From the NCBI RefSeq assembly GCF_051903065.1, contig NZ_CP178440.1: 64,000 nt of DNA; one strand, given 5' to 3'. This stretch comes from Escherichia coli (lineage in GTDB: Bacteria; Pseudomonadota; Gammaproteobacteria; Enterobacterales; Enterobacteriaceae). Each line of letters starts with the position of its first letter. The stretch's first letter is position 1. The translations under genes and the position numbers were made by a program. Below the pieces are notes generated by a model that saw only the letters and a program-made list of their open reading frames with translations, was not told the DNA's origin and made no database searches. Shown one piece after another: positions 8,465 through 59,611 of this stretch.

Positions 8465-8879
8465 TGACACTGGCGGGGTAAATCCCCGCCTTTTTCCTGC
8501 CGGTCCCCGGACAGAGCACAAAGGAAGTCGCCGCCGGCTCCGCTTTACCCGGCCATGCAGAGCATGGCCTTGTGGTTTTTCAGTTATGTGGCCTCAGCGT
8601 CGTGTGCGGGCTGTGCCGTGCCTCCATCTTAGCCGGGCTGGCGTTGATGCAAGGGTACGCTTCGCCGCTGCGGTCACCCGGTCCCTCCTTCCCGTCTGCC
8701 GTGATTTTCCGGTCGTTCGCCCGCTCAGGTTTCGCGGCCTCACCCTGCAACTCCCGCCAGCCGTGTGCGTCAGGCTGCGGCTTCCCTTGCGCCCCTGCAT
8801 CCCCGCCTTATCGCCCGGCTTTTATGGAGGCACGGCACCGCCCGGTGTCGCGGAATATGTGAACAACGGAGGAAATCCC

Positions 8880-9305
8880 ATGCAGTATGCGAAACCTGTC
8901 ACTCTGAACGTTGAAGAGTGCGACCGTCTCTCCTTTCTGCCTTACCTGTTTGGCAACGATTTTCTGTATGCCGAGGCGTATGTGTACGCGCTGGCGCAAA
9001 AAATGATGCCGGAATATCAGGGCGGCTTCTGGCACTTCATCCGCCTGCCGGACGGTGGCGGTTACATGATGCCGGATGGCGACCGTTTCCACATGGTGAA
9101 CGGTGCAAACTGGTTTGACCGTACCGTGAGTGCTGATGCCGCAGGCATCATCCTGACCTCCCTTGTGATTAACCGCCAGTTGTGGCTGTACCACGACAGC
9201 GGGGATGCAGGACTGACCCAGCTTTACCGGATGCGCGATGCGCAGTTGTGGCGTCACATCGAATTTCACCCCGAATGCAACGCGATTTACGCGGCTCTGG
9301 ACTGA
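8880..9305 (+). CDS. Antirestriction protein, KlcA/ArdB family
   Basis: 141-aa protein from ATG 8880 (RBS aacggagg); DRLSFLP and [15 protein letters not shown] segments resemble KlcA; the 336-aa ORF-track version is an N-terminal over-extension through GC-rich non-coding DNA. Confidence 0.7.
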
Positions 9306-13258: not shown

Positions 13259-13464
13259 AGACGCCGGGCAGGCGGGAGGATAAATGCCCGTCTGCCCGCG
13301 CCGGGAAAAGACCGCGCGCCGGTGGCGCTGAAAGGGGCCGCGCTCACGCGCCGCCCCTTTCATTACGCGGACGTTCTGATGGGGGCTTCTGTTTCTTCAT
13401 GCCTGTCATTTGTCTGTTACTGATGTTGTTGTTCCTGCTACTGCTACTGTTCTTCTTTTTCCTG

Positions 13465-14074
13465 CTGCTCTGATTCTGACTACTGCAGTGTTGTCCCGTC
13501 TGCCGGGCGCACCTTCGGCTCCCGGCTGCCTGGCGGCATCCGGTCGTCAGGCCCGACTCCGACAGGCAGCTGCTGGCGCACCTGCCAGTCTCCGCCGAAC
13601 CCGCTGGCGCGGTTTCGGGCTGTCGCTACGGTCCGATGCGTGAAAACCCCGGGCTTGCAGCGACCGTTCCGGTCGCGCCGCCTCTGTCGCGCCGTGGCCT
13701 GCGCTCCTGGCATCCCGGCAAAAGGCCGCCGGGATGTAAGGCGCAACGCCGTTTCGCAAACCGCGCTTCACGTCGTTGCGGCGGGTCCCTGCCCGTTGTT
13801 GTGTCCGGTGCCATTCACCTGTTTAAGCCCCTGTCGCCGGGGGCATAGACAGCCACAACCGTCTCCGCCAGTCCAGGGGTGAAATGCACATCCCGCAAAA
13901 CTTTTTGCCCGGAAGCAGGCAAAAACTTTTGCGGTCTGCCCCCGGACAGTCGTTTCCGGCCGTGGCAGTGATGCCCCTTGCGGCGAAGGTTCTCAAACAG
14001 GTGATGGTGAATACCGGAGGGAACAAAGAGCAGGTCCCCGCAAAACGTCAAAACCGCGGCTCCCGAAACTCAAC
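13465..14074 (+). promoter_or_regulatory. Frpo/ssi-like structured repeat, copy B, immediately upstream of ssb
   Basis: 610 bp, nearly identical to copy C (a few mismatches), more diverged from copy A; inverted repeat cgcaaaactttttgcc / ggcaaaaacttttgcg. Confidence 0.65.
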
Positions 14075-16907: not shown

Positions 16908-17035
16908 GTTTATATGATCATGGGATTATATGATTATATCATTTTGTAACTATTTGATTATGTAATTTTATGATTGCATAATTTTATGAATATGAGATTA
17001 TTTGAATACTTGGCAGAGGTACTATTTGAACAAAG
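16908..17035. promoter_or_regulatory. Array of about 7 degenerate AT-rich direct repeats (TT(A/T)TGA(T/A)T) upstream of parA; candidate centromere/operator
   Basis: ttatatgatca, ttatatgattat, tttgattatgt, ttttatgattg, ttttatgaata, ttatttgaata, tatttgaaca read at roughly 11-12 bp spacing. Confidence 0.5.
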
Positions 17036-26626: not shown

Positions 26627-27040
26627 TTTTCCACCTCTGGTGACTTTATCCGTAAATAATTTAACCCACTCCACAAAAAGGCTCAACAGGTTGGTGGTTC
26701 TCACCACCAAAAGCACCACACCCCACGCAAAAACAAGTTTTTGCTGATTTGCTTTTTGAATCATTAGCTTATGTTTTAAATAATGTATTTTAATTTATTT
26801 TACATTATTAAATAGGGGCGTTGACGACCCTATGGCGACCCTATGGCGACCCTTGTTAGGGTCAGTACTGACAAATTTTATGAAAAACATTTGGATATAT
26901 TAGGGCCGCCCCTAGCAGCGCCGTGCGTTTTTTTATAGTATGCCCCTAGGGGCGCTGCTAGGGGTGCTCTTCTTTTTTCAGACCAAACTATGAGTAAATG
27001 AAATAAAACACTTGTTTCAGAATATAAAAGGTACTGTCTT
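26627..27040. other. Origin of transfer (oriT) region between gene X and traM, with direct repeats cgaccctatgg x2 and inverted repeats (ctagcagcgcc / ggcgctgctag)
   Basis: Position, nic 22-mer, repeat architecture typical of relaxosome accessory-protein binding sites. Confidence 0.8.
26710..26731 (-). other. oriT nic region, minus-strand 5'-tttgcgtggggtgt/ggtgcttt-3'; predicted nick between 26718 and 26717
   Basis: Exact match to the F TraI ssDNA recognition 22-mer as I recall it; the 5' end at the nick leads into the leading region. Confidence 0.7.
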
Positions 27041-27424
27041 ATGGCCAGAGTAAATCTGTATATCAGTAATGAGGTTCATGAAAAAATTAACATGATTGTT
27101 GAAAAGCGTCGTCAGGAGGGAGCAAGAGATAAAGATATAAGCCTTTCAGGAACTGCTTCAATGCTTCTTGAATTGGGGCTTCGCGTATATGATGCACAGA
27201 TGGAGCGTAAAGAGTCTGCGTTTAACCAGACAGAGTTTAATAAACTTCTTCTTGAATGTGTTGTAAAAACACAGTCAACGGTGGCAAAGATTTTAGGTAT
27301 TGAGTCTCTCAGTCCTCATGTCTCCGGAAACCCGAAGTTTGAATATGCCAGTATGGTTGACGATATCAGAGAGAAAGTGTCTGTTGAGATGGACCGGTTT
27401 TTTCCAAAAAATGATGATGAATAA
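27041..27424 (+). CDS. traM: Relaxosome accessory protein TraM
   Basis: 127-aa ORF MARVNLYISNEVHEKINMIVEKRRQEGA...; first gene after oriT. Confidence 0.9.
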   Translation: MARVNLYISNEVHEKINMIVEKRRQEGARDKDISLSGTASMLLELGLRVYDAQMERKESAFNQTEFNKLLLECVVKTQSTVAKILGIESLSPHVSGNPKFEYASMVDDIREKVSVEMDRFFPKNDDE

Positions 27425-50354: not shown

Positions 50355-51089
50355 ATGATGAAAACAAAAAAACTAATGATGGTTGCACTGGTCAGTTCCA
50401 CTCTGGTCCTTTCAGGGTGTGGTGCGATGAGCACAGCAATCAAGAAGCGTAACCTTGAGGTGAAGACTCAGATGAGTGAGACCATCTGGCTTGAACCCGC
50501 CAGCGAACGCACGGTATTTCTGCAGATCAAAAACACGTCTGATAAAGACATGAGTGGGCTGCAGGGCAAAATTGCTGATGCTGTGAAAGCAAAAGGATAT
50601 CAGGTGGTGACTTCTCCGGATAAAGCCTACTACTGGATTCAGGCGAATGTGCTGAAGGCCGATAAGATGGATCTGCGGGAATCTCAGGGATGGCTGAACC
50701 GTGGTTATGAAGGCGCAGCAGTTGGTGCAGCGTTAGGTGCCGGTATCACCGGATATAATTCCAGTTCTGCCGGTGCCACACTCGGTGTGGGCCTTGCTGC
50801 CGGTCTGGTGGGTATGGCTGCAGATGCGATGGTGGAAGATGTGAACTATACCATGATCACGGATGTGCAGATTGCAGAGCGTACTAAGGCAACGGTGACA
50901 ACGGATAATGTTGCCGCCCTGCGTCAGGGCACATCAGGTGCGAAAATTCAGACCAGTACTGAAACAGGTAACCAGCATAAATACCAGACCCGTGTGGTCT
51001 CAAATGCGAACAAGGTTAACCTGAAATTTGAAGAGGCGAAGCCTGTTCTCGAAGACCAGCTGGCCAAATCAATCGCAAATATTCTCTGA
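50355..51089 (+). CDS. traT: TraT surface exclusion / serum-resistance lipoprotein
   Basis: Lipobox LSGC; near-identical to F TraT as recalled. Confidence 0.95.
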
Positions 51090-51291
51090 ACCTCGTCAGG
51101 AGGCTGGTCTGACCGGCCTCCTTGCTGACGCCTCGCGTTGCTCGTTGTCCAACCCCGGGACGTAACAAAATAAATTTTGTCACTTCCCGACGTTTCCGAA
51201 ATAAATATGAAAACACTGAGCGGTTGTGCAAATTCTTTGTGCGACCGTGAAGTGTTGCCGGCGAAGCCGGGATCTTCCGGAGAAAGTCATT

Positions 51292-52029
51292 ATGACATCA
51301 GACAATATCGCTGAATATGTTGGTGAGAATAATCAATTTACTGAGAAGCCTGTAACTGAATACCCCCCGGTGATACAGAATAATACAGTGACCACTAAAG
51401 ACTATCTGTACAGCAATAATATTGATACTGACCTTTTAGTGGTTATCGGAGGGCTTATTGTTATATTGTTTCTCATGATGCTTATCATGTACTTTATTAA
51501 TTCTCTCAGGCATAAGGAATTAACTGAAATACTGACAAAAATATCTTTTCCTGAAAAATCCGGGAGCAATTCGCTTAAACCGGAAGCGGTCAGCTGTAAT
51601 TTGTTGTCCCTGTGTGTGCTGGCACCGGTATTCTTTACACCCAGAAAGCTGGCTGAAGTTTCCAGGGAGATCATCGTGGCGAGTGCGCAGGAAATTGCAT
51701 GGACGCCGGGGAGCAGTCGTATTGATGGCCACCAGGCGGAGAATATCACCTGGGCGATTTCATCGCAGTCTCCTGCCGATAAGTATGATCTCATCAATAA
51801 AACGTCCCGTGTTTCTCCTGACAGTGGCCGTTTTTATGAACCGGACACAGTTCTGGATCACCGTGAGCGGGTACGCCTTTTTGTTCAGATCCAGTTTCCG
51901 CATGGGAGTGACTGGTCTGAAGTATTGCGCCTGACTGACATTGTTACAGAGAAGGTCTCTTCCGGCAGGGCTGCAGGCGGGTATCACCACCGGCATACAG
52001 GGTACACCTGGTCTGTTTCTGTGAATTAA
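51292..52029 (+). CDS. Hypothetical protein (about 245 aa, one predicted transmembrane helix) between traT and traD
   Basis: ORF from ATG 51292; not part of the core F tra gene set as I recall. Confidence 0.5.
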
Positions 52030-52079: not shown

Positions 52080-54341
52080 ATGAGTTTTAACGCAAAGGAT
52101 ATGACCCAGGGCGGTCAGATTGCGTCCATGCGTATCCGCATGTTCAGCCAGATCGCCAATATCATGCTTTACTGCCTGTTTATTTTTTTCTGGATACTCG
52201 TTGGTCTGGTTTTATGGGTAAAAATAAGCTGGCAGACGTTTGTGAACGGCTGTATTTACTGGTGGTGTACCACGCTGGAAGGCATGCGGGATTTAATCAA
52301 GTCCCAGCCGGTCTATGAGATCCAGTATTACGGCAAAACCTTCCGGATGAATGCTGCTCAGGTACTGCATGATAAATATATGATCTGGTGCGGAGAGCAG
52401 CTATGGTCCGCATTCGTTCTGGCCACAGTTGTGGCACTGGTTATTTGCCTGATTACCTTCTTTGTTGTCTCCTGGATTCTGGGGCGTCAGGGTAAACAAC
52501 AGAGCGAAAATGAAGTCACAGGTGGTCGTCAGCTGACAGACAATCCGAAAGACGTTGCCCGGATGCTGAAAAAAGACGGCAAGGACTCCGATATCCGGAT
52601 TGGCGACCTGCCGATTATCCGGGATTCTGAAATCCAGAACTTCTGTCTGCACGGCACGGTCGGGGCCGGTAAGTCGGAAGTTATCCGTCGTCTGGCCAAC
52701 TACGCCCGTCAGCGCGGTGATATGGTGGTGATTTATGACCGTTCAGGGGAATTTGTTAAAAGTTACTATGATCCCTCCATCGATAAGATCCTGAATCCGC
52801 TGGATGCCCGCTGTGCCGCCTGGGATTTATGGAAGGAGTGTCTGACACAGCCGGATTTTGATAATACGGCAAATACCCTGATCCCGATGGGCACAAAAGA
52901 GGACCCGTTCTGGCAGGGTTCAGGACGTACCATTTTTGCGGAAGCGGCGTACCTGATGCGTAATGACCCCAACCGCAGCTACAGCAAACTGGTGGACACA
53001 CTGCTTTCCATCAAAATCGAAAAACTGCGTACCTTCCTGCGTAATTCACCGGCGGCCAACCTGGTGGAAGAGAAAATTGAGAAAACGGCGATTTCCATCC
53101 GTGCTGTGCTGACCAACTACGTGAAAGCCATCCGTTACCTGCAGGGGATTGAGCATAACGGTGAGTCTTTTACCATCCGTGACTGGATGCGGGGTGTCCG
53201 GGAAGATCAGAAAAACGGCTGGCTGTTTATCTCGTCGAATGCCGACACCCATGCCTCCCTGAAGCCGGTGATCTCCATGTGGCTGTCCATTGCCATTCGT
53301 GGTCTGCTGGCAATGGGAGAAAACCGTAACCGTCGTGTGTGGTTTTTCTGTGATGAGCTACCCACGTTACACAAACTGCCGGACCTGGTGGAGATCCTGC
53401 CGGAAGCCCGTAAGTTCGGTGGCTGTTATGTGTTTGGTATCCAGTCCTATGCCCAGCTGGAAGATATCTACGGTGAGAAAGCGGCTGCCACGCTGTTTGA
53501 CGTCATGAACACCCGTGCCTTTTTCCGTTCTCCCAGCCATAAGATTGCAGAGTTCGCTGCCGGTGAGATTGGTGAGAAAGAGCACCTGAAAGCCAGCGAG
53601 CAGTACTCCTACGGTGCTGATCCGGTACGTGACGGGGTATCGACCGGTAAGGATATGGAGCGCCAGACGCTGGTCAGTTATTCCGACATTCAGTCTCTGC
53701 CGGATTTGACCTGTTATGTCACCCTGCCCGGACCGTATCCGGCAGTAAAACTCTCACTGAAATATCAGGCACGTCCGAAGGTTGCCCCTGAGTTTATTCC
53801 GCGTGACATCAACCCGGAAATGGAGAACCGCCTGAGCGCCGTACTTGCCGCAAGGGAAGCAGAAGGTCGTCAGATGGCCAGCCTCTTCGAACCGGATGTG
53901 CCGGAAGTTGTTTCCGGAGAAGACGTGACTCAGGCTGAACAGCCGCAACAGCCGCAACAGCCGCAACAGCCGCAACAGCCGCAACAGCCGCAACAGCCGC
54001 AACAGCCGCAACAGCCGCAACAGCCGCAACAGCCGCAACAGCCGCAACAGCCGCAACAGCCGGTGTCTCCCGCCATCAACGATAAGAAGTCAGATTCAGG
54101 TGTGAATGTTCCGGCAGGGGGGATCGAGCAGGAGCTGAAAATGAAACCGGAAGAAGAGATGGAACAGCAACTGCCACCCGGGATCAGTGAATCCGGTGAA
54201 GTGGTGGATATGGCCGCTTATGAGGCATGGCAACAGGAAAATCATCCGGACATCCAGCAGCAGATGCAGCGTCGTGAAGAGGTGAACATTAATGTGCACC
54301 GGGAGCGCGGGGAGGATGTTGAGCCGGGAGATGATTTCTGA
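52080..54341 (+). CDS. traD: TraD type IV coupling protein
   Basis: 753-aa ORF, Walker [10 protein letters not shown]-terminal QPQ repeat and acidic tail. Confidence 0.95.
53940..54062 (+). repeat. Tandem 9-bp repeat cagccgcaa, about 13.7 copies, in-frame within traD (QPQ repeats)
   Basis: Counted directly in sequence. Confidence 0.95.
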
Positions 54342-57300
54342 TGATGAGTATCGCGCAGGTCAGATCGGCCGGAAGTGCCGGTAACTATTATACCGACAAG
54401 GATAATTACTATGTGCTGGGCAGCATGGGAGAACGCTGGGCCGGCAGGGGGGCTGAACAGCTGGGACTGCAGGGCAGTGTCGATAAGGATGTTTTTACCC
54501 GTCTTCTGGAGGGAAGGCTGCCGGACGGAGCGGATCTAAGCCGCATGCAGGATGGCAGTAACAGGCATCGTCCCGGCTACGACCTGACCTTCTCCGCCCC
54601 CAAAAGTGTCTCCATGATGGCCATGTTAGGTGGCGATAAGCGCCTGATTGATGCACATAACCAGGCCGTGGACTTTGCTGTTCGTCAGGTGGAGGCGCTG
54701 GCCTCCACACGGGTGATGACGGACGGACAGTCAGAAACGGTGCTGACCGGTAATCTGGTGATGGCACTGTTTAACCACGACACTAGTCGCGATCAGGAAC
54801 CACAGTTACACACGCATGCGGTGGTGGCTAATGTCACGCAGCATAACGGTGAGTGGAAGACACTGAGCAGTGACAAAGTGGGGAAAACGGGGTTCATTGA
54901 GAATGTGTACGCTAATCAGATTGCCTTTGGCAGGCTCTATCGGGAAAAACTGAAAGAGCAGGTTGAGGCGCTGGGCTATGAAACCGAAGTGGTGGGTAAG
55001 CACGGTATGTGGGAGATGCCGGGCGTACCGGTGGAGGCCTTTTCCGGACGCTCACAGGCTATCCGAGAGGCCGTCGGGGAAGATGCCTCGCTAAAATCCC
55101 GGGATGTGGCGGCACTGGATACGCGAAAATCCAAACAGCACGTCGATCCTGAAGTCAGAATGGCTGAATGGATGCAGACGCTGAAGGAAACCGGGTTCGA
55201 CATCCGGGCATATCGTGACGCGGCGGATCAGCGTGCGGAGACCCGCACGCAGGCGCCCGGGGCTGTTTCACAGGAGGGGCCGGATGTGCAGCAGGCGGTG
55301 ACACAGGCGATTGCCGGATTAAGTGAACGAAAAGTGCAGTTTACGTACACGGACGTGCTGGCCAGAACAGTCGGCATACTGCCGCCGGAAAATGGTGTGA
55401 TTGAACGGGCACGCGCCGGTATCGATGAGACCATCAGCCGTGAGCAACTCATCCCCCTTGACCGTGAGAAGGGGCTGTTCACGTCCGGGATTCATGTGCT
55501 CGATGAACTGTCAGTCCGGGCACTCAGTCGCGATATCATGAAACAGAACCGGGTGACCGTACATCCGGAGAAAAGTGTCCCCCGGACGGCCGGCTACAGT
55601 GATGCCGTCAGTGTTCTGGCACAGGACCGTCCGTCGCTGGCCATTGTGTCCGGGCAGGGCGGTGCAGCCGGGCAGCGTGAGCGGGTGGCTGAACTGGTCA
55701 TGATGGCCCGGGAGCAGGGGCGGGAGGTGCAGATTATCGCTGCTGACCGTCGCTCGCAGATGAACCTGAAGCAGGATGAACGGCTGTCCGGTGAGCTGAT
55801 AACCGGACGTCGTCAGCTGCCGGAAGGCATGGCCTTCACGCCGGGCAGTACTGTTATCGTTGACCAGGGCGAAAAACTCTCCCTGAAAGAGACGTTAACC
55901 CTGCTAGACGGTGCCGCACGTCATAACGTACAGGTCCTGATAACCGACAGCGGGCAGCGAACCGGTACAGGCAGTGCGCTGATGGCCATGAAGGATGCCG
56001 GGGTTAACATATATCGCTGGCAGGGCGGAGAGCAACGACCGGCAACCATCATCAGTGAACCGGACCGTAATGTCCGCTATGCCCGGCTGGCCGGGGACTT
56101 TGCGGCCAGCGTGAAAGCCGGAGAAGAGAGCGTGGCACAGGTCAGCGGGGTACGGGAACAGGCCATACTGACACAGGCCATTCGCAGTGAGCTGAAAACA
56201 CAGGGCGTGCTCGGACACCCGGAGGTAACCATGACCGCCCTGTCACCGGTCTGGCTGGACAGCCGGAGCCGTTATCTGCGGGATATGTACCGCCCGGGAA
56301 TGGTGATGGAGCAGTGGAACCCGGAGACACGCAGTCATGACCGCTATGTTATCGACCGGGTGACGGCGCAGAGTCACAGCCTGACCCTGCGGGATGTGCA
56401 GGGCGAAACGCAGGTGGTGCGTATTTCCTCCCTGGACAGCAGCTGGTCGCTGTTCCGGCCGGAAAAAATGCCGGTGGCAGACGGCGAGCGACTGAGGGTG
56501 ACCGGGAAAATTCCCGGACTCCGAGTCTCCGGCGGTGACCGCCTGCAGGTGGCATCCGTCAGTGAAGATGTGATGACGGTTGTTGTGCCGGGGCGGGCTG
56601 AACCGGCCTCCCTGCCTGTGAGCGATTCACCGTTCACGGCACTGAAGCTGGAGAATGGCTGGGTGGAAACGCCCGGGCATTCCGTCAGCGACAGTGCGAA
56701 GGTTTTTGCCTCCGTCACACAGATGGCAATGGACAAGGCCACCCTGAACGGTCTGGCCCGCAGCGGTCGTGATGTCCGGCTGTATTCCTCACTGGATGAA
56801 ACCCGTACTGCGGAAAAACTTGCCCGCCATCCGTCCTTTACGGTGGTTTCTGAGCAGATAAAGGCGCGGGCCGGTGAGACATCGCTGGAAACGGCTATCA
56901 GTCATCAGAAGTCCGCACTTAACACGCCGGCACAGCAGGCCATTCATCTTGCCCTTCCGGTGGTGGAAAGTAAAAACCTGGCCTTCAGCCATGTGGACCT
57001 GCTGACAGAGGCAAAGTCGTTTGCTGCAGAAGGAACCAGTTTTGCTGACCTGGGGCGGGAAATCGATGCGCAGATAAAACGGGGCGATTTACTGCATGTG
57101 GATGTGGCAAAAGGTTATGGCACAGACCTGCTGGTTTCCCGTGCGTCGTATGAGGCTGAAAAAAGCATTCTTCGCCATATTCTCGAAGGTAAGGAGGCGG
57201 TCACGCCGCTGATGGAGAGAGTACCTGGCGAACTCATGGAGAAACTGACATCAGGACAGCGCGCCGCCACCCGCATGATACTGGAAACGCCCGACCGTTT

Positions 57301-59611
57301 CACGGTGGTGCAGGGCTATGCCGGTGTGGGTAAGACCACACAGTTCCGGGCGGTGATGTCAGCCGTGAACATGCTGCCGGAGAGTGAGCGTCCCCGTGTC
57401 GTTGGGCTGGGCCCCACGCACCGTGCGGTCGGGGAGATGCGCAGCGCCGGCGTGGATGCACAGACACTGGCGTCCTTTCTGCATGACACGCAACTGCAGC
57501 AGCGCAGCGGAGAAACGCCGGATTTCAGCAACACGCTGTTCCTGCTCGATGAGAGCTCAATGGTGGGCAATACCGACATGGCACGGGCATACGCCCTGAT
57601 TGCGGCCGGTGGTGGTCGTGCCGTGGCCAGCGGTGACACGGACCAGCTGCAGGCCATCGCGCCCGGTCAGCCTTTCCGTCTCCAGCAGACGCGCAGTGCT
57701 GCCGATGTGGCCATCATGAAGGAGATTGTGCGTCAGACGCCGGAACTGCGGGAGGCGGTATACAGCCTGATTAACCGGGATGTGGAAAGGGCACTGTCCG
57801 GGCTTGAGAGTGTGAAACCGTCTCAGGTGCCACGTCAGGAGGGCGCATGGGCACCGGAGCACTCCGTGACGGAGTTCAGTCACAGCCAGGAAGCAAAACT
57901 GGCAGAAGCGCAGCAGAAGGCGATGCTGAAAGGCGAGGCTTTCCCGGATGTCCCCATGACACTGTATGAAGCCATTGTCCGCGACTATACCGGCAGGACA
58001 CCGGAAGCACGGGAGCAGACGCTGATTGTCACGCACCTGAATGAGGACCGGCGCGTGCTGAACAGCATGATTCATGATGCACGGGAAAAGGCCGGTGAGC
58101 TGGGAAAAGAGCAGGTCATGGTGCCTGTCCTGAACACAGCGAATATACGTGACGGAGAACTGCGTCGTCTTTCCACCTGGGAGACACATCGGGACGCACT
58201 TGCCCTGGTGGATAATGTGTATCACCGGATTGCCGGTATCAGCAGGGATGACGGGCTGATAACCCTGCAGGATGCGGAAGGTAACACGCGGCTGATTTCG
58301 CCCCGGGAGGCGGTGGCTGAAGGTGTCACACTGTACACCCCGGACAAAATCCGGGTGGGGACCGGTGACCGGATGCGCTTCACGAAGAGTGACCGGGAGC
58401 GTGGTTATGTGGCCAACAGCGTCTGGACGGTGACAGCGGTATCCGGTGACAGTGTCACGCTGTCGGACGGACAGCAGACCCGGGTGATTCGCCCCGCCCA
58501 GGAGCAGGCAGAGCAACATATTGACCTGGCCTATGCCATCACCGCCCACGGTGCGCAGGGTGCGAGTGAAACCTTTGCCATTGCGCTTGAAGGCACGGAA
58601 GGTAACCGGAAACTGATGGCCGGCTTTGAGTCAGCCTACGTGGCCCTGTCGCGTATGAAGCAGCATGTGCAGGTGTACACCGATAACCGTCAGGGCTGGA
58701 CGGATGCCATTAACAATGCCGTACAGAAAGGAACTGCCCACGATGTGCTGGAGCCGAAACCGGACCGGGAGGTCATGAATGCAGAGCGGCTGTTCAGTAC
58801 GGCGCGGGAGCTGCGGGACGTGGCGGCAGGGCGTGCCGTTCTTCGTCAGGCGGGGCTTGCCGGGGGAGACAGTCCTGCACGGTTTATTGCACCGGGGCGT
58901 AAATATCCACAGCCGTATGTGGCACTGCCGGCGTTTGACCGTAACGGCAAATCAGCCGGTATCTGGCTGAACCCGCTGACCTCGGATGATGGAAACGGGC
59001 TGCGGGGATTCAGTGGTGAAGGCCGTGTGAAAGGCAGCGGGGATGCGCAGTTCGTGGCCCTGCAGGGCAGCCGTAACGGAGAAAGCCTGCTGGCTGATAA
59101 TATGCAGGATGGTGTCCGGATTGCCCGTGATAATCCTGACAGTGGTGTGGTGGTAAGAATCGCCGGTGAAGGCCGTCCGTGGAATCCCGGTGCCATCACC
59201 GGTGGCCGCGTGTGGGGGGATATCCCGGACAACAGCGTCCAGCCGGGAGCCGGAAATGGCGAGCCGGTCACGGCAGAGGTACTGGCACAGCGGCAGGCTG
59301 AAGAGGCCATCCGCCGTGAAACGGAACGCCGTGCGGATGAAATTGTCCGTAAAATGGCAGAGAACAAACCTGACCTGCCGGATGGCAAAACAGAGCAGGC
59401 TGTCAGGGAGATTGCCGGGCAGGTGCGTGAGCGGGCTGCCATAACTGAACGGGAAACTGCGCTGCCGGAGAGTGTGCTGCGTGAACCACAACGGGAGCGG
59501 GAAGCGGTCCGGGAGGTTGCCCGGGAAAATCTGCTGCAGGAGCGTCTGCAGCAGATGGAGCGGGATATGGTCCGTGACCTGCAGAAAGAGAAAACCCTGG
59601 GCGGAGACTGA
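54341..59611 (+). CDS. traI: TraI relaxase-helicase
   Basis: 1756-aa ORF; start overlaps traD stop. Confidence 0.95.
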   Translation: MMSIAQVRSAGSAGNYYTDKDNYYVLGSMGERWAGRGAEQLGLQGSVDKDVFTRLLEGRLPDGADLSRMQDGSNRHRPGYDLTFSAPKSVSMMAMLGGDKRLIDAHNQAVDFAVRQVEALASTRVMTDGQSETVLTGNLVMALFNHDTSRDQEPQLHTHAVVANVTQHNGEWKTLSSDKVGKTGFIENVYANQIAFGRLYREKLKEQVEALGYETEVVGKHGMWEMPGVPVEAFSGRSQAIREAVGEDASLKSRDVAALDTRKSKQHVDPEVRMAEWMQTLKETGFDIRAYRDAADQRAETRTQAPGAVSQEGPDVQQAVTQAIAGLSERKVQFTYTDVLARTVGILPPENGVIERARAGIDETISREQLIPLDREKGLFTSGIHVLDELSVRALSRDIMKQNRVTVHPEKSVPRTAGYSDAVSVLAQDRPSLAIVSGQGGAAGQRERVAELVMMAREQGREVQIIAADRRSQMNLKQDERLSGELITGRRQLPEGMAFTPGSTVIVDQGEKLSLKETLTLLDGAARHNVQVLITDSGQRTGTGSALMAMKDAGVNIYRWQGGEQRPATIISEPDRNVRYARLAGDFAASVKAGEESVAQVSGVREQAILTQAIRSELKTQGVLGHPEVTMTALSPVWLDSRSRYLRDMYRPGMVMEQWNPETRSHDRYVIDRVTAQSHSLTLRDVQGETQVVRISSLDSSWSLFRPEKMPVADGERLRVTGKIPGLRVSGGDRLQVASVSEDVMTVVVPGRAEPASLPVSDSPFTALKLENGWVETPGHSVSDSAKVFASVTQMAMDKATLNGLARSGRDVRLYSSLDETRTAEKLARHPSFTVVSEQIKARAGETSLETAISHQKSALNTPAQQAIHLALPVVESKNLAFSHVDLLTEAKSFAAEGTSFADLGREIDAQIKRGDLLHVDVAKGYGTDLLVSRASYEAEKSILRHILEGKEAVTPLMERVPGELMEKLTSGQRAATRMILETPDRFTVVQGYAGVGKTTQFRAVMSAVNMLPESERPRVVGLGPTHRAVGEMRSAGVDAQTLASFLHDTQLQQRSGETPDFSNTLFLLDESSMVGNTDMARAYALIAAGGGRAVASGDTDQLQAIAPGQPFRLQQTRSAADVAIMKEIVRQTPELREAVYSLINRDVERALSGLESVKPSQVPRQEGAWAPEHSVTEFSHSQEAKLAEAQQKAMLKGEAFPDVPMTLYEAIVRDYTGRTPEAREQTLIVTHLNEDRRVLNSMIHDAREKAGELGKEQVMVPVLNTANIRDGELRRLSTWETHRDALALVDNVYHRIAGISRDDGLITLQDAEGNTRLISPREAVAEGVTLYTPDKIRVGTGDRMRFTKSDRERGYVANSVWTVTAVSGDSVTLSDGQQTRVIRPAQEQAEQHIDLAYAITAHGAQGASETFAIALEGTEGNRKLMAGFESAYVALSRMKQHVQVYTDNRQGWTDAINNAVQKGTAHDVLEPKPDREVMNAERLFSTARELRDVAAGRAVLRQAGLAGGDSPARFIAPGRKYPQPYVALPAFDRNGKSAGIWLNPLTSDDGNGLRGFSGEGRVKGSGDAQFVALQGSRNGESLLADNMQDGVRIARDNPDSGVVVRIAGEGRPWNPGAITGGRVWGDIPDNSVQPGAGNGEPVTAEVLAQRQAEEAIRRETERRADEIVRKMAENKPDLPDGKTEQAVREIAGQVRERAAITERETALPESVLREPQREREAVREVARENLLQERLQQMERDMVRDLQKEKTLGGD

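What the first reader, a model, noticed from the sequence alone, without database searches (positions are those of the whole stretch)
53940..54062. Expanded 9-bp microsatellite (about 13.7 copies) encoding a QPQ tract in the TraD C-terminal region
A perfect tandem array of cagccgcaa lies in-frame in traD just before the acidic C-terminal tail that contacts TraM. Perfect short tandem repeats are slippage-prone, so copy number probably varies between isolates and could tune the spacing or flexibility of the TraM-interacting tail and hence transfer efficiency. F has far fewer copies as I recall.
Basis: partly seen in the sequence, partly recalled or inferred. Interest (0 to 1): 0.35.

Follow-up and report, generated by a model that had tools for sequence, protein, structure and literature searches.

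The report
Variable QQP repeat in TraD linker
A perfect 9-base repeat inside the conjugation gene traD encodes a floppy glutamine-proline spacer whose length differs widely between otherwise near-identical plasmids; it is real, but already described, and no effect of its length on plasmid transfer has been shown.

Summary
Window 53938-54062 holds 13.7-13.9 perfect copies of CAGCCGCAA, in frame in traD (52080-54341, 753 aa). They encode a 41-residue (QQP)n tract at residues 621-661. Copy number is highly polymorphic. Arrays read directly range from 1.67 to 26.67 units, and all are internally pure. Fifty-five plasmids at least 99.9% identical to the window over 20 kb carry eight different alleles (6.67-14.67). 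About a quarter of F-like plasmids keep the 1.67-unit state seen in F. The tract lies in the middle of a poorly conserved, P/Q/A/S/T-rich segment with AlphaFold pLDDT below 50. This linker joins the ATPase body to the conserved TraM-binding C-terminal module, and its length ranges from 33 to 95 aa in other genera. The feature is already published, as the "QQP motif" variable region of F-like TraD (Lang 2011) and as a PCR-typed "9 bp VNTR in traD" of Salmonella pSLT (Hiley 2019). I confirmed the pSLT array has the same unit at the same residue. The most likely reading is a slippage-driven, frame-preserving length polymorphism in a disordered spacer that is largely tolerated. A role in tuning transfer efficiency is untested and not excluded. 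Side finding: draft assemblies systematically break at this array.

The parts
53938..54062 (+). Perfect 9-bp tandem array (CAGCCGCAA x13 + CAGCCG in codon phase from 53940) encoding the (QQP)n tract, TraD residues 621-661
   Evidence: TRF period 9, 13.9 copies, 100% match. Unit-by-unit read. Tract residues.
52080..54341 (+). traD, the type IV coupling protein (753 aa) that contains the array
   Evidence: ORF. Pfam TrwB_AAD_bind, TraD_N, TraG-D_C. Residues 161-573 match TrwB structures 1E9R/1GL6. Protein identical to the annotated TraD of NZ_CP032991.1.
53814..53864 (+). Predicted helix 579-595 in the conserved proximal part of the TraD C-terminal extension, the upstream boundary of the disordered linker
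   Evidence: AlphaFold2 secondary structure H579-595. Residues 562-603 have a mean majority-residue share of 0.67 in 40 homologues.
53889..54116 (+). Hypervariable, predicted-disordered linker (residues 604-679, 76 aa) in which the array sits
   Evidence: Mean majority-residue share 0.24, against 0.60-0.67 in the flanking modules. Length 33-95 aa in 40 homologues. pLDDT below 50 for 588-697 and no secondary structure 596-701.
54117..54338 (+). Conserved distal module of TraD (residues 680-753). It includes the 38-residue TraM-binding segment (716-753, nt 54225-54338) and the terminal octapeptide DVEPGDDF (nt 54315-54338).
   Evidence: Length conserved at 65-88 aa, median 72. Helices 711-737. 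TraM-binding positions from the F numbering in PMC7555446, mapped.
27041..27421 (+). traM, the relaxosome protein that the TraD tail binds; present and intact in the window
   Evidence: tblastn hit, 127 aa. Pfam Tra_M 2.8e-52, full length.
54341..59611 (+). traI (relaxase/helicase), starting at the traD stop codon; genomic context
   Evidence: 1756-aa ORF. Annotated traI in identical records.

Best explanation
The array is an in-frame variable-number tandem repeat. During replication the nine-base units misalign (strand slippage), so whole units are gained or lost. Because 9 is a multiple of 3, the reading frame and the downstream TraM-binding module are always preserved. Only the length of a Gln-Gln-Pro tract changes. 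That tract sits in the middle of an intrinsically disordered, poorly conserved linker. The linker tethers the conserved C-terminal TraM-docking module to the membrane-anchored hexameric ATPase body of the coupling protein TraD. The linker acts as a flexible leash whose exact length and sequence matter little, so most length variants are tolerated and copy number drifts quickly. Arrays with fewer than about two full units, as in F, are essentially stable. Once expanded, arrays change on the time scale of a few SNPs per 20 kb. Shown here: the array, its frame, its polymorphism, its purity, its position in a low-conservation and low-confidence segment, and the intact partner gene. Inferred: slippage as the mutational mechanism, the leash role, and near-neutrality.
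For: Array and frame. Polymorphism: record spans differ from the query by multiples of 9 in systematic samples of 3,967 plasmid records and 3,202 E. coli records. Fifteen arrays from other records read directly have 1.67-26.67 units. Speed relative to point mutation: 55 records at least 99.9% identical over 20 kb carry 8 alleles, 6.67-14.67, while the record sharing the window's allele differs by 4 SNPs in 20,001 nt. Slippage signature: the E. coli-type arrays read are all internally pure, there are two lineage-specific units (CAGCCGCAA and CAGCCACAA), all changes are whole units, and no DNA secondary structure exceeds chance (z = +1.34). Threshold behaviour: 22-25% of records sit at exactly 1.67 units and the rest spread broadly; in pSLT, all 105 Clade I isolates had 1 repeat against 5-19 in Clade II. 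Disordered, unconstrained linker: pLDDT below 50 for 588-697 with no secondary structure. Conservation is 0.24 against 0.60-0.67 in the flanks, and linker length is 33-95 aa across 40 homologues, with Klebsiella-type TraD using unrelated P/A/S/T-rich sequence in the same slot. No solved structure exists beyond residue 573. Lang et al. call the extension unstructured. Independent wet-lab confirmation of length variation comes from PCR sizing of the homologous pSLT array.
Against: Near-neutrality is inferred and not measured; no isogenic copy-number series has been tested for transfer. In pSLT each host genotype keeps a characteristic range of repeat numbers. In the window's own lineage the alleles cluster at 8.67-10.67. 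Either pattern could reflect shared ancestry or stabilising selection. Some E. coli arrays (26.67 units, linker about 115 aa) exceed the 95-aa maximum linker length seen in other genera, so expansion may not be unconstrained. The composition is always Q/P rather than arbitrary, which a pure spacer model explains only through the history of the seed sequence. Copy numbers derived from record spans carry an uncertainty of about 1 unit in the roughly 91%-identity lineage.
Confidence: 0.7

Rival explanations
1. Adaptive tuning knob. Linker length sets the reach or effective local concentration of the TraM-binding tail around the TraD hexamer. Copy-number changes would then adjust relaxosome docking, and hence transfer efficiency or substrate specificity, and selection would act on the variants that slippage generates.
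For: The tract lies between the ATPase body and the TraM-binding module. According to work cited by Lang et al., the C-terminal extension determines the specificity of substrate interaction. Lineage-specific modes of copy number exist: 8.67-10.67 in the window's lineage and genotype-specific ranges in pSLT. High mutability combined with frame preservation is the design expected of a quantitative 'knob'.
Against: No experiment links tract length to transfer. The linker is the least conserved region and varies about threefold in length across genera. F (5 residues) and R1 (23 residues) are both efficient conjugative plasmids (efficiency from general knowledge). Lineage-specific modes are equally expected from common descent.
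Confidence: 0.2
2. Phage-driven diversification. F-specific RNA phages such as R17 require TraD for entry, so variation in the TraD C-terminal extension, including QQP length, would be selected because it alters phage susceptibility.
For: Lang et al. 2011 show that R17 infection depends on TraD. The dependence differs between F and R1: R1 also needs TraI and the relaxosome, and F does not. They suggest that TraD variation, explicitly naming the QQP motif, and phage resistance may drive this diversification.
Against: This is a speculation by the authors, described as 'under investigation', and I found no follow-up. F and R1 TraD differ at other positions too. TraD is cytoplasmic, so any effect would be indirect.
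Confidence: 0.06
3. Assembly or sequencing artefact. The apparent copy number and its variation would come from mis-assembly of a short-period repeat rather than from biology.
For: Draft assemblies do fail here. Many 'partial' TraD proteins end at or within about 10 residues of the array start, and two of them occur on 299 and 139 contigs. Some long-read records carry homopolymer errors nearby.
Against: Variation is always in whole 9-bp units in complete records. Duplicate or derived records agree with each other, for example H140/H141, H175/H176 and MN101857/MN101858. The window's allele is reproduced exactly in an independent record. Older reference sequences differ: F has 5 residues and R1 has 23. 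PCR fragment sizing in 220 Salmonella isolates shows 5-19 repeats.
Confidence: 0.02
4. A nucleic-acid-level element. The repeat would act as DNA or RNA, for example as a structured element or a protein-binding array affecting traD-traI expression, rather than through the encoded peptide.
For: It lies about 280 nt upstream of the traI start within the same operon.
Against: Folding is no better than shuffled controls (z = +1.34; 186 of 200 shuffles fold at least as well). The two unit alleles differ only at a synonymous third position (CCG/CCA), so the QQP peptide is conserved while the DNA changes. The antisense ORF is a by-product of the repeat.
Confidence: 0.02

Closest known systems
'QQP motif' variable region of F-like TraD coupling proteins (Lang et al. 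2011, Mol Microbiol, PMC3245843)
   Same: Same protein, same position in the C-terminal extension and same Gln-Gln-Pro repeat. It is explicitly described as variable in length between related plasmids (F has 5 residues, R1 has 23).
   Different: The window's tract is longer, at 41 residues. That paper compared 17 reference plasmids at the protein level and did not describe the 9-bp DNA unit, its purity, the two unit alleles or variation among near-identical backbones.
[quoted passage not shown] 2019, PLoS One, PMC6459517)
   Same: It is the homologous site. LT2 pSLT traD carries CAGCCGCAA x10 + CAGCCACAG starting at residue 621, and the published primers flank the linker. Copy number is 5-19 by PCR in Clade II and 1 in Clade I, which mirrors the bimodal pattern I see in E. 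coli plasmids.
   Different: pSLT TraD is only about 83% identical to the window's protein. There the VNTR was used as a lineage marker for a vertically inherited plasmid, whereas here it sits on an epidemic IncFII-type resistance-plasmid backbone found in several genera.
In-frame VNTRs in bacterial repeat-containing proteins (for example the Ser-Asp repeat region of staphylococcal SdrD; general class)
   Same: Short units whose length is a multiple of three, length polymorphism between isolates, and repeats that encode low-complexity spacer regions.
   Different: Those are mostly surface-exposed proteins, where the repeats project a binding domain through the cell wall. TraD's tract is cytoplasmic. 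This comparison rests on general knowledge and I did not test it here.
Classical contingency loci (phase-variable simple sequence repeats)
   Same: Slippage-prone repeats inside or near a gene that generate heritable, reversible variation at high rate.
   Different: Those switch expression on and off by frameshift or promoter spacing. A 9-bp unit cannot shift the frame, so this array changes length only.

Membership tests
F-type type IV coupling protein TraD (VirD4/TrwB family) | N-terminal TraD_N membrane region plus TrwB-like nucleotide-binding and all-alpha domains | tested here: met
   Pfam TraD_N 8.1e-35 and TrwB_AAD_bind 4.5e-117 over 172-561. phmmer match to TrwB 1E9R/1GL6, E = 3e-47, residues 161-573.
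F-type type IV coupling protein TraD (VirD4/TrwB family) | C-terminal extension of about 150-200 aa ending in an acidic tail with a Gly and a terminal aromatic residue (...EPGDDF) that binds TraM | tested here: met
   The extension is about 180 aa (residues 574-753) and the protein ends ...[12 protein letters not shown]. The last 8 residues contain 4 acidic and 0 basic residues. Criteria as listed in PMC7555446. Binding itself was not tested.
F-type type IV coupling protein TraD (VirD4/TrwB family) | Operon context traT - traD - traI, with the cognate traM on the same replicon | tested here: met
   traT-like ORF at 50355-51089, traD at 52080-54341 and traI at 54341-59611. Same order in annotated identical records. 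traM at 27041-27421.
TraD QQP motif / traD 9-bp VNTR | Tandem Gln-Gln-Pro repeat encoded by a 9-bp unit, in frame, beginning at about residue 621 after ...(V/A)xQAE | tested here: met
   Window residues 621-661 follow ...VTQAE. Same start residue and same CAGCCGCAA unit in LT2 pSLT. Same position in F-type and R100-type cluster representatives.
TraD QQP motif / traD 9-bp VNTR | Copy number polymorphic among closely related plasmids | tested here: met
   Eight alleles among 55 records at least 99.9% identical over 20 kb. Overall range 1.67-26.67 units.
Phase-variable contingency locus | A change in repeat number switches the gene on or off, by frameshift or altered promoter spacing | tested here: not met
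   The unit length of 9 is a multiple of 3, and every array read keeps traD in frame. The only unannotated traD examined (CP044024) is broken by G-homopolymer deletions outside the array.
Intrinsically disordered flexible linker | Low-complexity composition, poor sequence and length conservation, no predicted or solved structure, flanked by conserved modules | tested here: met
   P + Q make up 61% of the window's linker. Conservation is 0.24 against 0.60-0.67 in the flanks, and length is 33-95 aa in homologues. pLDDT is below 50 for 588-697. No PDB coverage. Disorder is predicted, not measured.
Intrinsically disordered flexible linker | Function depends on tethering and is insensitive to exact length | not testable with these tools
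   This needs isogenic length variants and mating assays. No such data were found in the literature.

The most novel reading that the evidence does not exclude
The QQP array is a quantitative 'evolvability knob' for the coupling protein. By rapidly resetting the reach of the TraM-docking tail, it lets epidemic F-like resistance plasmids adjust relaxosome recruitment when they enter new hosts or meet new competitors. The affected traits could be transfer rate, mobilisation of co-resident plasmids, or susceptibility to TraD-dependent RNA phages. The lineage-specific copy-number modes would then reflect selection rather than descent.
Probability: 0.15. Interest if true: 0.5.

Novelty: already known. 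Interest (0 to 1): 0.2.

Why it matters
Biologically it matters modestly. It is a clear example of a hypermutable, frame-preserving repeat inside a core conjugation protein, and whether linker length affects transfer of resistance plasmids remains an open but narrow question. It matters more in practice. Among plasmid backbones nearly identical to this one, differences in array length were the recurring difference seen over the 20 kb compared, so it could serve as a fine-scale marker for tracking plasmid transmission, as was done for pSLT. It is also a systematic breakpoint in short-read assemblies. That breakpoint truncates traD annotations in many hundreds of draft genomes at least, and could be misread as loss of conjugation ability.

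Tried and rejected
1. The 90%-identity protein clusters could not give a copy-number distribution, because clustering collapses the length variants. I used record spans from systematic BLAST samples instead, calibrated by direct reads.

2. My first regex-based measurement of linker length failed, matching only 1 protein. I replaced it with alignment-based anchors at F603 and G680.

3. The older primary papers (Frost 1994 review, Beranek 2004, Sastre 1998) are not held in the library. Statements about the TraM-binding 38-mer and octapeptide therefore rest on the 2020 review and on Lang 2011.

4. Literature searches on tandem repeat/IncF/in-frame, indel/IncF and slippage found nothing relevant.

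5. I considered a DNA-structure role and rejected it.

6. The antisense 100-aa ORF (53754..54056, LRLLRLL...) is a translation artefact of the repeat.

7. I suspected interrupted or mixed arrays in the hits with intermediate identity. All of those arrays turned out to be pure, and the lower identity came from the flanks and from gaps.

8. The odd span of 449 in CP044024 is explained by homopolymer deletions outside the array, not by a partial unit. I had entered it as 450 in the tally.

9. The window's exact TraD sequence is absent from the 15-billion-protein collection but is present in RefSeq record NZ_CP032991.1. That absence therefore says nothing about novelty.

Full report
**1. The observation**

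Window 53938-54062 contains a single tandem array of period 9 with 13.9 copies, 100% matches and no indels (TRF score 250). In codon phase this is CAGCCGCAA x13 followed by CAGCCG at 53940-54062, or 13.67 units. It is the only strong tandem repeat in the 64-kb window.

The array lies in frame in a 753-aa ORF at 52080..54341 on the + strand. That ORF is the F-type coupling protein TraD: Pfam TrwB_AAD_bind 4.5e-117, TraD_N 8.1e-35, TraG-D_C 2.8e-19. Residues 161-573 match the TrwB crystal structures. The encoded tract is a 41-residue (QQP)n run at residues 621-661.

**2. Context**

The window is an F-like (MOBF/MPF_F) conjugative plasmid backbone of the IncFII type. It matches p2_W2-5 of an E. 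coli river-water isolate (NZ_CP032991.1) with 4 SNPs in 20,001 nt and an identical TraD, array included.

- Gene order is traT, a hypothetical ORF, traD, traI, traX, finO.
- The partner gene traM is intact at 27041-27421.
- TraD ends in ...[12 protein letters not shown]. In F numbering, the last 8 residues contact the TraM tetramerisation domain and the last 38 are the conserved TraM-binding segment (PMC7555446).
- In the window those elements begin 84 and 54 residues after the tract ends. 'Just before the tail' is therefore only loosely right.

**3. Copy number is highly polymorphic**

I searched with a 423-nt query spanning the array. It hit 3,967 PLSDB plasmid records and 3,202 records from 2,794 of 5,426 complete E. 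coli genomes.

- In the evenly spaced samples of about 60 rows each, the record spans differ from 423 by multiples of 9. The one exception, CP044024, is explained by G-homopolymer deletions outside the array.
- I read 15 arrays directly from other records. They have 1.67, 7.67, 11, 11.67, 12.67, 13.67, 14.67, 16.67, 17.67, 18.67, 21.67 and 26.67 units.
- With spans calibrated by those reads, both samples give a median near 8 units and a range of 1.67-26.67.
- A spike of 22-25% sits at exactly 1.67 units, the F state. The window is at about the 80th percentile (uncertainty about 1 unit in the roughly 91%-identity lineage).

The variation outpaces point mutation. Among the 60 best matches to 20 kb of the window, 55 usable records are at least 99.9% identical. 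They carry eight alleles: 6.67, 7.67, 8.67, 9.67, 10.67, 12.67, 13.67 and 14.67, with a mode of 9.67-10.67. A plasmid with 100% identical 423-nt flanks has 18.67 units. Duplicate or derived records agree with each other, which argues against assembly noise.

**4. Anatomy of the arrays**

- Every E. coli-type array is internally pure.
- Two unit alleles exist: CAGCCGCAA in the window/F/R100-like lineage, and CAGCCACAA in a lineage about 91% identical that also has a 9-bp deletion upstream.
- The two units differ only at a synonymous third codon position. One array is CCA x16 ending in CAGCCG.
- Purity despite diverged flanks, whole-unit changes only, and a stable 1.67-unit state together form the signature of replication slippage with a length threshold.
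- The repeat strand folds no better than shuffled controls (z = +1.34). Slippage therefore needs no special DNA structure, and an RNA or DNA structural role is unlikely.

**5. Where the tract sits in the protein**

I aligned 40 diverse full-length TraD proteins, with identity down to 59%. The alignment divides the C-terminal extension into three parts.

| Part | Window residues | Mean majority-residue share | Length across homologues |
|---|---|---|---|
| Conserved proximal segment | 562-603 | 0.67 | not measured |
| Hypervariable linker | 604-679 | 0.24 | 33-95 aa, median 55.5 |
| Conserved distal module | 680-753 | 0.60 | 65-88 aa, median 72 |

- The linker is 40 aa in F and 76 aa in the window, and would be about 115 aa with 26.67 units.
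- A short QPQQP-type seed occurs at the same residue in E. coli, in Salmonella and in a group about 73-78% identical.
- Klebsiella-type TraD fills the slot with unrelated P/A/S/T-rich sequence instead.
- AlphaFold2 run on this alignment gives pLDDT below 50 and no secondary structure for residues 588-697, flanked by helices 579-595 and 711-737.
- No solved structure covers anything beyond residue 573.

The tract is therefore the expandable part of a disordered leash between the ATPase body and the TraM-docking module.

**6. Mechanism**

The best-supported reading is a slippage-driven, frame-preserving VNTR that changes the length of a flexible spacer, with most variants tolerated.

- Shown: the array, frame, polymorphism, purity, low conservation, predicted disorder and intact partner gene.
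- Inferred: slippage as the mechanism, the leash function and near-neutrality.

It is not excluded. Lineage-specific modes exist, both in the window's lineage and in pSLT genotypes. Those modes are equally expected from descent, and no functional test exists. Lang et al. speculated that TraD variation, naming the QQP motif, may underlie F/R1 differences in R17 phage infection and be driven by phage resistance. I found no follow-up.

**7. Comparison with what is known**

The feature is already described twice.

- Lang et al. [quoted passage not shown]
- Hiley et al. [quoted passage not shown] PCR sizing gave 5-19 repeats in 220 Clade II isolates and 1 repeat in 105 Clade I isolates, with genotype-specific ranges.

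I verified that the pSLT array is the same site. Their primers translate to DTEAVAP and GGVGQEL, which flank the linker. LT2 pSLT traD carries CAGCCGCAA x10 + CAGCCACAG starting at residue 621.

The array is not a phase-variation switch, because a 9-bp unit cannot shift the frame.

**8. Side finding**

Draft assemblies break at this array.

- Several 'partial' TraD clusters end at ...VTQA, the residue before the tract.
- Two independent contigs stop 3 nt before the array.
- In the main cluster, 13 of 14 listed non-representative members are full-start proteins that end at, or within about 10 residues after, the array start. Two of them were seen on 299 and 139 contigs.

Copy number should therefore be trusted only in complete, long-read or PCR data. 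Truncated traD calls in draft genomes should not be read as loss of function.

**9. Verdict**

Novelty: already known. Interest is low to moderate, at 0.2. The residual open question is whether linker length has any phenotype, and the isogenic series described under next steps would answer it directly.

Noticed in passing
window 53938-54062; loci L016 and L017 (contig ends); proteins P0017, P0018, P0102, P0118, P0135-P0148: Short-read draft assemblies systematically end contigs at this array. Many 'partial' TraD proteins start at Met1 and stop at ...VTQA or a few QQP units later (for example P0135 on 299 contigs and P0136 on 139 contigs). Two independent contigs stop 3 nt before the array.
   Followed up: yes
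L003, L004, L006, L007, L009, L010, L014 versus window 53940-54062: There are two lineage-specific unit alleles, CAGCCGCAA and CAGCCACAA (a synonymous Pro codon). Every array is internally pure. The CCA lineage also has a 9-bp deletion about 40-150 nt upstream. L007 is CCA x16 ending in CAGCCG.
   Followed up: partly
L010 (CP044024.1), downstream of the array: traD is unannotated in this record because of single-base deletions in G homopolymers (GGGGGG to GGGGG). This is probably long-read assembly error and is unrelated to the repeat.
   Followed up: yes
window 53754-54056, minus strand: A 100-aa antisense ORF ([10 protein letters not shown]...) exists only because the reverse complement of the repeat lacks stop codons. 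It is not a gene.
   Followed up: partly
window 51226-52029 (+): An ORF between traT and traD is annotated only as 'hypothetical protein' (WP_015059020.1, 738 nt) in the identical record. Its function is unknown.
   Followed up: no
L018 (pSLT) 8561-9280 and L011 (Shigella sonnei pINV) 870-1032: In pSLT and in Shigella pINV, a vapBC/mvpAT-type toxin-antitoxin module sits immediately downstream of traD. In the window traI follows traD directly.
   Followed up: no
window 26825-26853, 16924-17005, 13414-13466: There are other weak tandem repeats. One is an exact 11-bp x2.6 repeat about 190 nt upstream of traM, possibly within the oriT/TraM-binding region. Another is an AT-rich 16-bp x5.1 array, and the third is a 27-bp x2 repeat.
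   Followed up: no
window 52080-54338 (TraD protein): The exact 753-aa sequence is not in the 15-billion-protein collection, although an identical protein is annotated in RefSeq record NZ_CP032991.1. Absence from that collection is not evidence of novelty.
   Followed up: yes
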